Assembly: GCA_964016885.1 (NCBI GenBank) | Contig: OZ024755.1 | Coordinates: 23,746,001-23,810,000 of the forward strand | Source: Eledone cirrhosa | Lineage: Eukaryota | Direction of reading: 5' to 3' | Length of the DNA stretch: 64,000 bases | Translations under genes and position numbers: made by a program | In this document: in pieces, positions 1 to 60,150 of the stretch | Numbering within the stretch: position 1 is the first letter of the stretch | Layout of the letters: every line of letters starts with the position of its first letter | Notes under the pieces: model-generated | Seen by the model: the letters and a program-made list of their open reading frames with translations, nothing else | Told to the model about the DNA's origin: nothing | Databases searched by the model: none

Positions 1-250
1 CACACACCCACACATATATACATATGTATATATATATATATATGTGTATTATATATATATATATATATACAGACACACACACATATGTACATATGTATAT
101 ATATATATATATATATATATATATATATATATATACAGACACACACACATATATACATATGTATATGTATATATATATACATATATACATATGTATATAT
201 ATATACACATATACATATATATATATATATACACATATACATATATATAT
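1..250. repeat. (TA)n/(CA)n microsatellite; representative of dozens of such tracts (e.g. 760-1035, 29356-29700, 30000-30570, 45460-46165)
   Basis: Direct dinucleotide repeats; they produce the spurious YIYIYI ORFs. Confidence 0.98.
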
Positions 251-570
251 AGTATCCGGATACTATCCAGGAGCTTCCAACCGACATGGTCGCATTCTTT
301 AAGGGTATGTCAATATTTGTTTATAAAATATTGACATACCCTTAAAGAATGCGACCAATATTTGTTTATAAAACTGATCTATATTATATTTTATCTGATG
401 AAAGTGCACCATAATTTGCTTTGGTGTCCTTGAAATATGTATAATGAAATAAATATGGTTTTATAAATATAGTTTCCATATTGTATTTATACTCCAATAA
501 TTTGTTGAGTGCTTTATATCAGTTATAAAAATATTTGCTTGTTGTATCCCAACAAATTAAATATAACTTC
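249..570 (+). mobile_element. Penelope-like pLTR fragment with foldback and degenerate hammerhead
   Basis: 32-bp inverted arms 287-318/326-357; CTGATGA 395-401, stem II aagtgcacc/ggtgtcctt, GAAA 432-435; flanked by TA tracts. Confidence 0.6.
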
Positions 571-582
571 TACATATATATA

Positions 583-760
583 GGAATGAGATGATAGGGA
601 CTGGGGTCCCTATCATCTCATTTCTACAGCTGAGTAAACTGGAGCAATGTGAAATAAAGTGTCTTGCTCAACGAAACAACACATCACCTGTTCTGAGAAT
701 TGAACTCACAACCTTTCGATTGCAAGGCAAATGCTCTAACCACTAAGCCATGTGCCTCCA
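583..760 (-). mobile_element. SINE family B, 5' part (tRNA-like head plus core)
   Basis: Reverse complement of the head at 51480 and 59486 (ggaggcacatggcttagtggttagagc...). Confidence 0.85.
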
Positions 761-1039
761 TCTATATATATACATACACATCTATATATACACACACACA
801 CATATATATATATATATATATATATATATATATATATATATATATATATATATATATATATATATATATATATATATATATATATATATATATATATATA
901 TATATATATGTGTGTGTGTGTGTATATATATAGATGTGTATGTATATATATAGATGTGTATATATATATATATATATATATATATATACACATATATATA
1001 TAGATGTATATATATATATATATATATATATATATAGGT

Positions 1040-1430
1040 ATATATGTAGACTGGAGTGAAATGAAGCAAGCATGCTCTGTTGGAAGTGCAATGTAAGTGT
1101 GAGAGAGGCAAAACTTCAATGGGTTGAGGGAGCAGCTGGCTTTAAGAGGAATTCGAGATGGTGTGCAGGTGAGAAGACTGCATGGGCTTGGACATGTGAT
1201 GCACATGGACAATGATCGTTTCATGAAGAAATGCCAGTGAAAGTCGTGATAGAGGTAGACCAAGAAAGACTTGGGCACAGGTTGTGAGAGCTTATCTCAA
1301 ATCACTGAAACTCACAGAGGTGATGACAAAGGATCAGGACGTGGAGAGATGCCATGTTGAGAAGGAGTTGTCTAACCCATGCAGGCATGGTTTTTACGTC
1401 TGCTTCTCCATGCCTGCATGGGTTAGACAA
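1040..1430 (+). mobile_element. Decayed RTE LINE 3' fragment
   Basis: Homologous to 37850-38130 (ERNEASML...RRLxWxGHV...GRPRKTW). Confidence 0.8.
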
Positions 1431-1487
1431 CTCCTTCTCAACATTTATATATATATATATATATATATATATATATATATATATATA

Positions 1488-1760
1488 TCATCATCATCAT
1501 CATCATCATCAACGTTTAACGTCCGTGTTCCACGCTTGCATGGGTTTGGACGGGGGTAGTCCCACTTGAAGCAAGAGTGATTGTCTTGCTCGCATAGGAC
1601 TGTCTGGCAGGTTTTCTACAGTTGGATGCCCTTCCTAACACCAACCACATTTACAGTGTGGGTCTGGGAGGTTTTTACCGTGTTGCCTACACGGCCACAT
1701 TACAGCATGGACTGTGTGTTTTTTTGTCGTGACACCGACACGATCTCATTTGTTTCGGCC
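1488..1760 (-). mobile_element. SINE B-type tail segment ending in (GAT)n
   Basis: ggatgcccttcctaacaccaacc motif and tail shared with 28527, 31144, 25700. Confidence 0.75.
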
Positions 1761-1929
1761 TGGATGGCGCGGCACCAACATAACTTTACATAGAACGGGG
1801 TGGTGTGGATGGGGTGGGGGGTGGGGGGGTGGGGGTGGGGGGGGGTGTATATTGTTAGAGATGCCTACTGGCTGTAGTAGGTTTTACTATGTATTTAGGT
1901 AAGGCGGGTCTTCTCTGTTACTATATATA

Positions 1930-56831: not shown

Positions 56832-56996
56832 CTGATGAAGACGGACTGGAGTTTTTAGAGGTATTACCACATGCAGTATCCCCTTGGCTGTGTCGGGCAT
56901 GGTGACCAGAACAGTGAGTGTGGGTACAGGATCTATTAGTTTTTGGTAAATCGGCAGCACATTTCAGCAAACTGTAGACAGGGTCAATCTCTTGAC
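56832..56996 (-). CDS. 165-nt internal exon of the host gene, possibly a STAC-like (SH3 and cysteine-rich domain) adaptor
   Basis: Strong acceptor tttctctctttgcAG, donor cag|GTaatg, phase 1-1; EIDPVYSLLK resembles the STAC linker KVDPVYETLR recalled from memory. Exon call is firmer than the family call. Confidence 0.7.
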
Positions 56997-57095
56997 CTGC
57001 AAAGAGAGAAATTATTGAATCAGTTATGAAATATGAAGAAGAAACATCAAATTCATAGAACAAATTAGAATAATGTAACTTTTTGCCAACCACAT

Positions 57096-57410
57096 CAGGG
57101 CCAGATTTAATGGGGGCAAAGGGGGCAATGGCCCCAGGTTTCTACAGTGGGAAGCCCCACCAGCGATGGTCATAGCAATTTATTTGTGCCCTCCACTGGG
57201 CTTTTTAGTTTTAGGATGGTTACAATTTTTGAATTTAATACCTATATGTATAACTTTTCGATTCCAATTACTTGTGTCAAGCTAACTTTGGCATGTAAAA
57301 TTGGAGGGGGAGGGGGGGGGTAGGTTTGCTGTGTATTCTAATTTTTTGTGTATGAGGTCCCCTCCCACCAAACCTGAAATGCCCCAGGCCTAGGTCTAAA
57401 TCCAACACTG
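57096..57410. mobile_element. hAT-like MITE
   Basis: TIR cagggccagattta / taaatccaacactg; subterminal gccccagg motifs. Confidence 0.55.
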
Positions 57411-57851
57411 ACCATCATTGATTTTTATATGTTTTAAAAATTCCTTGAAAATTAAACAGGTTCACTAATTTAGAATATTTGTCTAAATAACCTCTAAATT
57501 CTGGCTTTAGATCTAGAGAAATGAAAATTCACTACAGAATGAGATAAACCTAGAATGCATGCCACTGAACTATTTTAAAAAATCTAGCATACTACACCAA
57601 ATTATCTTTACATGTTAGATTAGATTTTGTATTTTATTTGAAAATATACATATTTTTGTTGGCTTACATATTTCAGCTTTCCTGTTTTGATCTGAATTGT
57701 AAAGAAAATAAATGTAAAGTGTGTTGTTTGTTTTAAATAGTCTATTCAACTCTACTTCAGTTGATCTAGAGAATGGAGGAAACAGTTGAAATGTCTCGAG
57801 AGATTCAAAAGATTCAGCACGTCACATCACATGTATGTATATATATATATA

Positions 57852-59313
57852 TCTATACATATATATATAAAACTGAAATTGTCTGTGTATGTGTGTGTGT
57901 GTCCTAATTTTTACAAAGTCTATACAAATCCACATTTCTACTCCGATTGACTTCAAGCTTGCATTTATATATTCCTTGTGGTCTGAAGATATTAACTGCA
58001 GCTTTTATTTTTCAATTTTATGTTGTTAAAGGTGTGTTAGGCGCCGGTTAGCGATCTCTCTTTTTCTTAGTCTGTCTTTTTAGATAGATACATAGATATA
58101 ATGTTGCGCCCTTATAATATCTGTCTGTATGTCTGGCTGTCTGCATTATGACATTATGTAAACATTGTTCTCATTGCTGACGTATTATCTTCGCTATTTT
58201 CCGTTCATTGCCAGGGAACGTCTTCACGAACCAAAGTATCGTCTTCCTGTTTTCCTTCGGTTGCAACGTTTTTCAAAATATTTACTTCTGCGTTCACAGA
58301 TTGATTTTTTTAGTTTCAGAAGATCCCGTTAAGGGTGAAAGCAGCGATTCTTTGCTTAAATTTTAATCTGTTATTTTAATATATATAGAATTATATATTC
58401 GTGTACAGATATTTTTGCATACACAAAAACAAAATATAAACAAATGTATTTATTTCACGAAAGCACAGACGGCTTATTGTCATTGTTACTGCCAATATGC
58501 CACCCAAAAAGTCCCACTATTTTTGGCACAAGGCCAGCAATTACTGAGTCAACGGTTCGGAAATCACATGCATCACTGATGAGTTTATTCCTTACTCTAC
58601 CAGTTAGTCTTATTGTACTTCATCCTGCTTTTAGGTCATGCCTCGAAGGAAGAGATACTCCATTGGCCGAAATACTGGGAAAGCAGAAAGAAAAAAAAAA
58701 GGTAGGCAAATGAATCATCAGTGGAATCTGCTATTTGATGGTCGCAAGATGCTGAACGTACTGCCACCAGAAGAGCACTTGAAACAGACAACCAATGAAC
58801 CATTCACCGAACCGTGTCAGCTTTGCAATGTCTATCAACAAATCCCAGGGTCAGACCCTAGCTGTTGCTGGTCTTCTTTTGGAAGAGTCATGTTTTTCAC
58901 ACGGGCAACTATACGTTGGCTGCTCAAGAGTGGGAAGCAAGACAAATCTCTTTGCATATTCCCGACACGGAAGAACAAGGAATATTGTTTACAAGGAGGT
59001 GTCACAATCATTGTTTAGATAGACGATGCAGAAGGGGATATACACGATTGGCTGAAGAAGGACGAGACTGTGTTAGTAGTACGACCAACGGCTGCTATCA
59101 CACCAACAGCAGCAAAAACAACAACAAAAAAGAGAGGGAATGCAATTACATGCTTTTGAAAAATCTTAATGGAAAATTATTTGCCTAAGCACAAAATGTA
59201 GACACCATCCCCAGGCCGAGGTATTCTGTACTTCTCTGTACTGTTTCAGAAAGGACGGATAAACATGCCAATCTATGTTTAGAAGCCCGAGCAACGCCGG
59301 GCCATTCTGCTAG
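57852..59313 (+). mobile_element. Non-autonomous Helitron with RepHel remnants
   Basis: 5' TC after A; 3' hairpin cccg..cggg then CTAG|T; Pif1 helicase motifs FAMSINKSQGQT, FSHGQLYVGCSRV, NIVYKEV (58810-59000). Confidence 0.9.
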
Positions 59314-59485
59314 TATATATATATATGTAAAAGGTAAACAGAAATAACAACACAATCAGTACAGTATATGGAAGGAATATATTAGGTTAACGCTTGAAGT
59401 AGCATGTGTGTGTGTGTGTGTGTGTGTGTGTGTGTGTGTGTGTGTGTGTGTGTGTGTGTGTGTGTGTGTGTGTGTATATATATAT

Positions 59486-59822
59486 GGAGGCACATGGCTT
59501 AGTGGTTAGAGCATTGGCCTTGCAATCGAAAGGTTGTGAGTTCAATTCTCAGATGTGATGTGTTGTTTCCTTGAGCAAGACACTTTATTTTACATTGCTC
59601 CAGTTTACTCAGGTGTAGAAATGAGATGATAGGGACTGGAGTCCCTATCATTCCACTGCAAAGTGGTCGTGGAGGTGCCATGGCAAAAAAGCGCCCACCA
59701 CTCACTGTAAATGAGGTTGGTGTTAGGAAGGGCATCCAGCTGTAGAAATCAAGCCAGAATCAGTTCCCATCAGACCCTTGCAAACAGGGAAAAGTGGACG
59801 TAAAATGAAATGAAATGAAATG
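59486..59822 (+). mobile_element. Full-length SINE B
   Basis: Near-identical to 51480-51821. Confidence 0.9.
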
Positions 59823-59839
59823 AATATATATATATATAT

Positions 59840-60150
59840 AATATGAAAGATTCAGGACCCACACATCTGAGCTCTTTCTTAATACCATACTCTCCTATCC
59901 CAAGTATCGAATACTCTGGTGAGTAGTAGTCCAAACAGGTTTTTACTGATAAGCAGATCGATACTGGAGTTGGGTCCATAACTCCTATGGGTCACCTTGA
60001 GCCATTCCTCTACGAAATGCTCGTAACAGGTTGATACGTAATAAATATGTTTCATATGTAAACAAAACTTCCTCGTTTTTTTTCTATTATGCTTATGCAT
60101 AGAGTGTTTGATTTGGTATCAATAGTATTTCACTGTACTACCCCCACACA
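59840..60150 (+). mobile_element. pLTR cassette with branched-stem-II HHR (59941-60030)
   Basis: CTGATAA 59946-52, GAAA 60014-17, GTA 60023-25; TA-flanked. Confidence 0.55.

What the first reader, a model, noticed from the sequence alone, without database searches (positions are those of the whole stretch)
249..60150. Recurrent short hammerhead-ribozyme cassettes in (TA)n microsatellites (Penelope pLTR/retrozyme-like system)
Seen: about a dozen non-coding islands of ~100-350 bp, mostly sitting directly in or next to TA tracts, carry CTGANGA...GAAA..TH cores or near variants (395, 4192-, 7053-, 7300-, 20527, 26789, 35384, 42093, 45539, 45886, 46304, 50046-, 59946). They fall into several sequence families. 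One follows a GIY-YIG ORF directly. Established: Penelope-like elements carry minimal HHRs with short, often palindromic stem III in their pseudo-LTRs. Inference: a dense and diverse set of TA-targeted ribozyme mini-elements, possibly mobilised in trans, that could cleave intronic host or antisense transcripts.
Basis: partly seen in the sequence, partly recalled or inferred. Interest (0 to 1): 0.8.

Follow-up and report, generated by a model that had tools for sequence, protein, structure and literature searches.

The report
Penelope retroelement stubs with hammerhead ribozymes
The short ribozyme-like islands in this octopus-like DNA are likely the cut-short, often mirror-duplicated tail ends of ordinary Penelope-type jumping genes that insert into TA repeats, mostly decayed, and not a new class of independent ribozyme elements.

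Summary
The islands exist and favour (TA)n: 11 of 13 cores lie within 160 nt of a TA tract, against 20% background. Only 4 of 13 sites keep convincing hammerhead stems (395, 4223-, 45539/45528-, 45886). The rest are decayed and rest on family homology or context.

The anatomy matches published Penelope-like element (PLE) insertions: head-to-head inverted 5'-truncated arms, a tail on one arm only, ragged 5' ends, and core-less siblings. One family was tested against reads. The 4223- motif follows a PLE GIY-YIG ORF. Other copies end in (TA)n, form the same inverted junctions, and give 6-7 times more depth at the ribozyme than at the ORF. A matching motif follows the ORF in 3 of 4 distant PLE loci. 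The other families could not be tied to an ORF, because no genome is held.

No head-to-tail arrays were found, so these are not retrozymes by definition. No host exon was detected and no RNA run was available, so cleavage of host RNA is untested. Small additions: direct copies often start at the ribozyme's 5' edge, tail-less ends share 3-4 nt with the TA target, and one family may carry a U4C core. Known kind, new host lineage.

The parts
252..470 (+). Island with hammerhead (C3 395, motif about 387-452), preceded by an internal palindrome (287-357). 358-394 is probably an inverted arm that extends stem I.
   Evidence: (arm alignment p=0.048)
4072..4585 (-). Family A PLE 3' UTR/pseudo-LTR with minimal hammerhead (about 4190-4228; C3 4223, core CCGAAGA, stem III AATT). 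The 3' end at 4072 abuts (TA)n.
4586..5035 (-). C-terminal part of the PLE ORF (cysteine linker plus GIY-YIG with CCHH); a different repeat lies upstream at 5036-5216.
5930..6070 (.). Family D stub without a core: 41-nt inverted arms plus tail.
6919..7240 (-). Family D inverted insertion with a decayed hammerhead (C3 7091; GAAA box reads AAAA) and a 55-nt tail on one arm; TA on both sides.
7269..7386 (-). Family C 3' end with a U3-A8-type core (7373), 7-bp stem III and imperfect base of stem II; abuts (TA)n. 5' limit unknown.
20250..20474 (.). Family D inverted insertion with tail, no recognisable core; TA on both sides.
20519..20587 (+). Family E single copy with decayed core (ATGATGA at 20527); ends in (TA)n.
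20834..21022 (.).
26704..26885 (+). Singleton island with exact core (26789) and decayed stems.
35277..35455 (+). Family C: inverted arm with a 78-nt tail (35277-35375) joined to a direct copy that starts at the core (35376). The apparent 19-bp stem I is this arm.
41999..42300 (+). Family B inverted insertion; hammerhead with a long stem II loop (core 42093, stem III palindrome); tail on the direct arm.
45472..45670 (.). Family E: perfect 124-bp head-to-head palindrome with an exact core on each strand (45539+, 45528-), a 5-bp stem I and a 73-nt tail; probably very recent.
45834..45969 (+). Best canonical minimal type I hammerhead (45880-45924) in a 136-bp insert between two TA tracts.
46166..46495 (+). 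Inverted insertion with exact CTGATGA (46305) but weak stems; the hammerhead call is doubtful.
49990..50140 (-). Family B copy with exact core (50129); not near TA.
59841..60153 (+). Composite: core-less family C inverted stub with tail (59846-59945) directly followed by a family B copy (core CTGATAA at 59946).

Best explanation
The islands are likely 5'-truncated 3' ends (pseudo-LTR stubs) of several endonuclease-positive Penelope-like retrotransposon families; this is shown for the family at 4072-5035 and inferred for the others. Shown: each stub carries all, part or none of the family's type I hammerhead. Many sit head to head with a shorter inverted copy, and one arm ends directly in (TA)n while the other runs on for a 20-78-nt tail. 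Inferred mechanism: the GIY-YIG endonuclease nicks a (TA)n tract, and the reverse transcriptase primes at one of two internal sites on the uncleaved element RNA. At the tail-less site, 3-4 nt of AUA/AUAU would pair with the nicked target. Copying stops early, often at the 5' edge of the ribozyme. Priming on both strands would give the head-to-head pair. The hammerhead is carried along because it lies within about 30-200 nt of the start of reverse transcription. After insertion it decays. Most copies would not cut read-through RNA, because they are mutated, lack a same-family dimer partner, or are locked in the arm hairpin.
For: Family A: the GIY-YIG ORF is 62-67% identical to RT-bearing or related PLE proteins, including one named from Octopus bimaculoides. 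Reads and contigs laid on 4071-5030 show TA-run loose ends at the same 3' end in 23 and 16 contigs. They also show 7 opposite-strand joints, 6 of them with the direct copy starting 20-89 nt upstream of C3. Summed depth is 6.3 and 7.3 times higher at the ribozyme than over the ORF, with no step at the cleavage site (ratio 1.0). A contig from a second organism joins the ORF end to the ribozyme across a diverged UTR. 3 of 4 distant PLE loci carry a minimal hammerhead-like motif after the GIY-YIG stop with different but pairing stem II sequences. In the window: 8 island-scale self-inverted repeats; one-sided tails; different 5' ends and core-less siblings in families C and D; 3-4 nt shared with the TA tract in 5 of 8 two-armed islands, against 6.7% background. 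Family B keeps 22 of 24 stem cells paired. Published anatomy agrees: PMC8557442, PMC3846280, PMC4209133, PMC11167929.
Against: Only family A is tied to an ORF. tblastn and an HMM of 89 PLE proteins found no other PLE ORF remnant next to a cassette. Collection scans for families B and C found nothing. 8 of 13 sites do not beat random positions on stems alone, and family B covariation is not above its shuffle control (311 of 500). Summed contig depth is not a copy number. The 2.2-fold step at 4230 is confounded by a variant subfamily that diverges at 4234-4235. X1 and X2 are one sample and may be the assembly source. Tails (up to 78 nt) are longer than the 30-40 bp reported. 8 of 13 direct copies start within about 16 nt of C3 (judged by eye), which is tighter than random truncation would suggest. 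Priming on both strands is not shown; PMC3846280 proposes self-priming on antisense RNA instead.
Confidence: 0.8

Rival explanations
1. Some families (B, C, E, 45886) are non-autonomous PLE derivatives with defined ends, transcribed on their own and mobilised in trans by PLE proteins (solo retrozyme-like elements).
For: No ORF link was found for these families. 5' ends cluster at the ribozyme edge. Ribozyme-end depth exceeds ORF depth 6-7 fold in family A. Non-autonomous PLE derivatives and retrozymes of PLE origin are published.
Against: No head-to-tail array covers any cassette. Families C and D have copies of clearly different length, some without the core. ORF-linked family A produces the same short inverted products, so no separate element is needed.
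Confidence: 0.13
2. The inverted islands are MITEs or fold-back DNA transposons that insert at TA, and the hammerhead-like words in them are incidental.
For: Inverted ends and TA flanks; a real MITE-like family with symmetric ends is present in the window (27993-28158, 55848-56012).
Against: The arms are asymmetric, with a tail on one side. Arm length varies within a family, and the same end occurs without an arm (7373-, 20527, 50129-). The same anatomy is seen in reads of the GIY-YIG family.
Confidence: 0.03
3. Several of the weaker sites (46305, 7091-, 26789, 35376) are chance matches to the core inside repeat sequence, not former ribozymes.
For: Their stem scores fall below the 95th percentile of random positions. 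The loose descriptor does not beat shuffles. About 4 core-plus-GAAA matches are expected by chance in this window.
Against: In 46305, 7091- and 35376 the motif lies exactly at the start of the direct copy of an inverted insertion, facing the 3' end, as in the intact examples. 35376 is homologous to 7373-, which has a 7-bp stem III.
Confidence: 0.2
4. The stubs have been kept or recruited as regulators that cut intronic or antisense host transcripts.
For: 4 of 13 motifs look intact, and the density is high.
Against: Most copies are decayed. There is no strand bias (9 plus, 4 minus; p=0.27). The perfect palindrome folds as a -105 kcal/mol hairpin. 45886 has no second family copy in the window to act as dimer partner. 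Published minimal PLE hammerheads are inactive as monomers and weak as dimers.
Confidence: 0.04

Closest known systems
Minimal type I hammerheads in pseudo-LTRs of metazoan Penelope-like elements (Cervera and de la Pena 2014, PMC4209133)
   Same: Short helix I, an unpaired base after A9 and a G10.1-C11.1 pair (at 4223-), palindromic helix III, several families per genome, mostly solo copies read as truncated PLEs, opposite-strand pairs close together, U3-A8 variant.
   Different: My searches found no report in a cephalopod. Families C and E have 4-7-bp helix III stems, longer than typical metazoan ones. Family A reads C at position 4. Local density is high (4 intact-looking sites in 64 kb).
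Insertion anatomy of endonuclease-positive PLEs (Craig et al. 2021, PMC8557442; Arkhipova et al. 2013, PMC3846280)
   Same: [quoted passage not shown]
   Different: Tails are 20-78 nt rather than 30-40. The linker is CX4CX7C in the window and in 28 of 46 parsed homologues, not CX2-5CxxC, so the clade is unresolved (Nematis-like from memory). The 3-4-nt match between the tail-less end and the TA target did not turn up in my searches.
Anolis Poseidon element PAc (Frangieh et al. 2024, PMC11167929)
   Same: Internal start of reverse transcription at two sites that define the tail; AT-rich targets; both strands extended; uncleaved RNA is the template, which fits the absence of a depth step at the cleavage site here.
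   Different: PAc priming is described as non-homologous to the cut DNA. Here 4 of 6 families show 3-4 nt of possible pairing at the short end.
Animal non-LTR retrozymes (PMC7229834; bioRxiv 10.64898/2026.07.22.740005)
   Same: Short non-coding units with a type I hammerhead, related to PLE pseudo-LTRs.
   Different: Retrozymes are defined by head-to-tail tandem units and circular RNA. Here the copies are single or head to head, of variable length, and RNA is untested.

Membership tests
Endonuclease-positive PLE (C-terminal GIY-YIG) | C-terminal GIY-YIG with CCHH motif and a cysteine linker | tested here: met
   4586-5035(-): Pfam GIY-YIG E 5.8e-7; CxxC, EH and second H aligned
Endonuclease-positive PLE (C-terminal GIY-YIG) | Reverse transcriptase upstream in the same ORF | tested here: inconclusive
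   Absent from the window copy (another repeat lies at 5036); present in close homologue P0003, 62% identical, and in most of the 87 relatives listed
Endonuclease-positive PLE (C-terminal GIY-YIG) | Hammerhead in the pseudo-LTR downstream of the ORF | tested here: met
   Family A, 363 nt after the stop; joint 4235-4597 in organism B; 3 of 4 distant loci
Endonuclease-positive PLE (C-terminal GIY-YIG) | 5' truncation, inverted 5'-truncated copy and one-sided tail | tested here: met
Endonuclease-positive PLE (C-terminal GIY-YIG) | Families B, C, D, E and the singletons continue into a PLE ORF elsewhere in the genome | not testable with these tools
Minimal type I hammerhead of metazoan PLEs | Core plus stems I and II and a short or palindromic stem III | tested here: met
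   Met for 4 of 13 sites (395, 45539/45528-, 45886, and 4223- with C at position 4); not shown individually for the other 9
Minimal type I hammerhead of metazoan PLEs | Covariation among copies | tested here: inconclusive
   Family B: 91.7% of cells paired against 58% or less when slid, but the shuffle control is not exceeded (n=3). Stem II differs yet pairs between family A and L001, L002, L004 (read by eye)
Minimal type I hammerhead of metazoan PLEs | Self-cleavage as monomer or dimer | not testable with these tools
   Needs an assay or end-mapped RNA reads
Rfam Hammerhead_1 (RF00163) | Score at or above the gathering threshold of 34 bits | tested here: not met
   Best hit 31.7 bits at 45880-45924, E 6e-4
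Animal non-LTR retrozyme | At least two head-to-tail units, each with a hammerhead | tested here: not met
   No tandem array covers a cassette; no joint from the 3' end back to the start among the 14 listed for family A
Animal non-LTR retrozyme | Abundant circular or unit-length RNA | not testable with these tools
   No RNA run was available to lay
MITE / TIR DNA transposon | Symmetric terminal inverted repeats with fixed ends in all copies | tested here: not met
   Asymmetric, variable arms and arm-less copies

The most novel reading that the evidence does not exclude
The stubs are a programmed short product, not random truncations. The PLE transcript begins just upstream of the hammerhead, the reverse transcriptase starts internally in the upstream pseudo-LTR, and both strands of a nicked (TA)n are primed through 3-4-nt AUAU pairing. 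Ribozyme-bounded units would then be the main insertion product, and some could be transcribed and moved again in trans. This would give octopods one of the densest known populations of hammerheads, including monomer-competent long-stem-III types (families C, E) and a highly amplified U4C core (family A).
Probability: 0.2. Interest if true: 0.55.

Novelty: new member of a known kind. Interest (0 to 1): 0.27.

Why it matters
It annotates many short 'palindromes in TA tracts' in an octopus-like genome as PLE ends. Such islands could be mislabelled as MITEs or unknown repeats. If the two small regularities hold genome-wide (starts at the ribozyme's 5' edge, 3-4-nt pairing with the TA target), thousands of natural junctions would test how PLEs prime and why they form head-to-head copies, which is still open. 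As a new ribozyme system or host regulator the evidence is weak.

Tried and rejected
(1) Pile-up of read ends and loose ends at 4196 in run X6, one base from the predicted cleavage site. It looked like insertions ending at the cut. Rejected: 6 of the 8 begin or end places listed fall on AATT or CATG sites, so it is a restriction-library effect, and whole-genome contigs show no step there.
(2) A 19-bp stem I in family C. Rejected: it is the inverted arm.
(4) The repeat finder was swamped by TA runs; a masked self-BLAST was used instead.
(5) Scans that found nothing: family C pattern in metagenomes, family B pattern and PLE protein in viral contigs, PLE alignment in prokaryote genomes.
(6) No RNA holder listed; this is no evidence on expression.
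(7) Host gene search: of 11 ORFs plus 150 ORFs drawn from 293 candidates, only transposon-type domains scored clearly. One weak PPP5 hit (E 0.0017) was below cut-off. Short exons could be missed.
(8) One search used a misregistered structure string and is disregarded; one search is the corrected count.
(9) A core proposed at 20894 was misplaced and not confirmed.
(10) In one search the anchors for D5932 and X46305 matched poorly (6/8 and 5/8); both were counted as misses.
(11) Earlier findings by place and by sequence: none.

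
Full report
Setting. The window is 66% AT, rich in (TA)n and dispersed repeats. No genome is held. The GIY-YIG fragment is 66% identical to a protein named from Octopus bimaculoides, so an octopod host is likely (inference).

Observation. All 13 islands exist. 8 carry an exact CTGANGA and 5 a variant. Core plus GAAA is mildly enriched: 10 against 4.25, reached by 2 of 100 shuffles. A strict structure descriptor finds 395 and 45886 against none in 30 shuffles, and adds 4223- with one core change. 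A looser descriptor is not discriminating. Scored site by site, 4 of 13 beat the 99th percentile of 600 random positions: 395, 4223-, 45539 with its mirror 45528-, and 45886. That score rewards only contiguous stems and its null ignores the CUGA box, so it is conservative for decayed copies. Rfam matches only 45880-45924, below threshold.

Families and anatomy. Masked self-BLAST gives family B (42093, 50129-, 59946), C (35376, 7373-, 59846), D (6926-7238, 5932, 20250) and E (45539/45528-, 20527), plus singletons. Eight islands are self-inverted. In most two-armed islands one arm runs straight into (TA)n and the other continues for a tail of 20-78 nt. Family C shows this twice with the tail on opposite arms, which also shows that the 19-bp 'stem I' at 35376 is an insertion arm. 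Families C and D include copies too short to hold a core. So the ribozyme-bearing islands are a subset of a length series, not fixed units. Craig et al. (PMC8557442; passages and Introduction) and Arkhipova et al. (PMC3846280; passages) describe this anatomy for PLEs: 5' truncation, inverted truncated copy, one-sided tail and, in Craig et al., (TA)n targets. Cervera and de la Pena (PMC4209133; parts 1-2 of 4) report that most minimal hammerheads are solo, probably truncated PLEs, with opposite-strand pairs 100-700 bp apart.

Link to an autonomous element. For family A the hammerhead lies 363 nt after the stop of a C-terminal GIY-YIG ORF with CCHH and a CX4CX7C linker. Its relatives carry RT. 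I laid four of eight listed runs on 4071-5030 at 80% likeness. Other copies end at 4072 in a TA run (23 and 16 contigs). Seven opposite-strand joints reproduce the inverted anatomy, with the direct copy starting 20, 24, 41, 48, 50, 89 and 524 nt upstream of C3. Summed depth at the ribozyme is 6.3 and 7.3 times that over the ORF and falls 5'-ward; the tool warns this is no copy number, and X1 and X2 are one sample. There is no step at the cleavage site, so inserted copies derive from uncleaved RNA (inference). This agrees with PAc (PMC11167929; passages and half of the main text). A second organism joins ORF end and ribozyme across a diverged UTR (one contig). Three of four distant PLE loci (35-38% identity) carry a minimal motif after the stop with an AATT or ATAT stem III and different stem II pairs. 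L004 has the U3-A8 core, L002 a damaged core and L001 a weak stem I; L003 ends in a simple repeat first. No other cassette could be tied to an ORF.

Mechanism. Shown: anatomy, TA flanks, 3' excess, ORF link for one family. Inferred: nicking at (TA)n, internal priming at two sites, early stop, and priming on both strands to give head-to-head pairs. Two regularities go a little beyond what I read. First, tail-less ends share 3-4 nt with the TA tract in 5 of 8 islands, 4 of 6 families, against 6.7% background (p about 3e-4). Second, by eye 8 of 13 direct copies start within about 16 nt of C3 (395, 7091-, 20527, 35376, 42093, 45539, 46305, 59946). The others start 52 and 85 nt upstream, run into the ORF, or have an unknown limit. 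Family A shows a 2.2-fold depth step at 4230, but a variant subfamily diverging at 4234-4235 can explain part of it. Either stalling at the fold or an RNA 5' end just upstream would give this pattern. Position 4222 is not among the 40 of 207 variant rows shown, whose lowest share is about 72%. So C at core position 4 is probably not private to this copy, but this is unresolved. U4C is a known natural variant with reduced activity (PMC3088659, one passage).

Function in the host. No host exon domain was detected, and no RNA run was available. The youngest island folds as a -105 kcal/mol hairpin. 45886 has no partner copy in the window. Minimal PLE hammerheads are reported inactive as monomers. 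Regulation of host RNA is therefore unsupported and untested.

Comparison and novelty. It works like, and for family A belongs to, the PLE pseudo-LTR hammerhead kind. It fails the tandem test for retrozymes (bioRxiv 10.64898/2026.07.22.740005, part 1 of 5 and passages; PMC7229834, passages) and the symmetry test for MITEs. Penelope families are already catalogued in Octopus vulgaris, 30 of them recently active, and the word ribozyme does not occur in that paper's main text (PMC13282606; part 1 of 3 and passages). Searches for cephalopod hammerheads or PLE microhomology returned no report of them. The library lacks most subscription papers, including Lunse et al. on dimer-cleaving PLE hammerheads (seen only through a review, PMC6765202, passages), and I read no supplements. 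Four intact-looking sites in 64 kb would be a high density if typical, but one window may be a hotspot. Verdict: real, largely decayed, explained by known PLE biology; a new member of a known kind; interest 0.27.

Noticed in passing
window 35277-35354, 45596-45670, 20970-21022: The tails of three otherwise unrelated families share a short motif around GTAT(T/C)GAGTA (pairwise p 0.003 or less in 300 shuffles, 91 pairs tested). It could be a protein-binding or priming signal.
   Followed up: partly
window 27993-28158 and 55848-56012: Two copies of a ~165-bp MITE-like element with symmetric terminal inverted repeats and the same ends; unrelated to the hammerhead stubs.
   Followed up: partly
window 59841-60153: A family C stub and a family B stub are joined without a spacer; adjacent insertion or template switch between two PLE RNAs.
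   Followed up: partly
   Followed up: partly
window 45539 and 20527: Family E has a U-U mismatch at the base of stem II in both copies, as described for an axolotl hammerhead family, and a near-palindromic 16-nt stem III.
   Followed up: no
window 7373 (-) and L004:1350: U3-A8 covariant cores.
   Followed up: partly
window 33541-34842, 54118-54732, 38193-38368: Tandem arrays with periods of 31, 57 and 50 bp.
   Followed up: no
window 36191-36724, 36861-37634, 43416-43616, 28827-29417: LINE-type reverse-transcriptase fragments, one followed by a PHD finger; 28827-29417 had no Pfam hit and is assigned by eye. A large dispersed SINE/LINE-end repeat group with tRNA-like heads is also present.
   Followed up: no
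P0002: The Octopus bimaculoides entry joins a PLE thumb-linker-GIY-YIG segment to a long charged, coiled-coil-like protein (958 aa; Pfam PF05672); possibly a mis-joined gene model.
   Followed up: no
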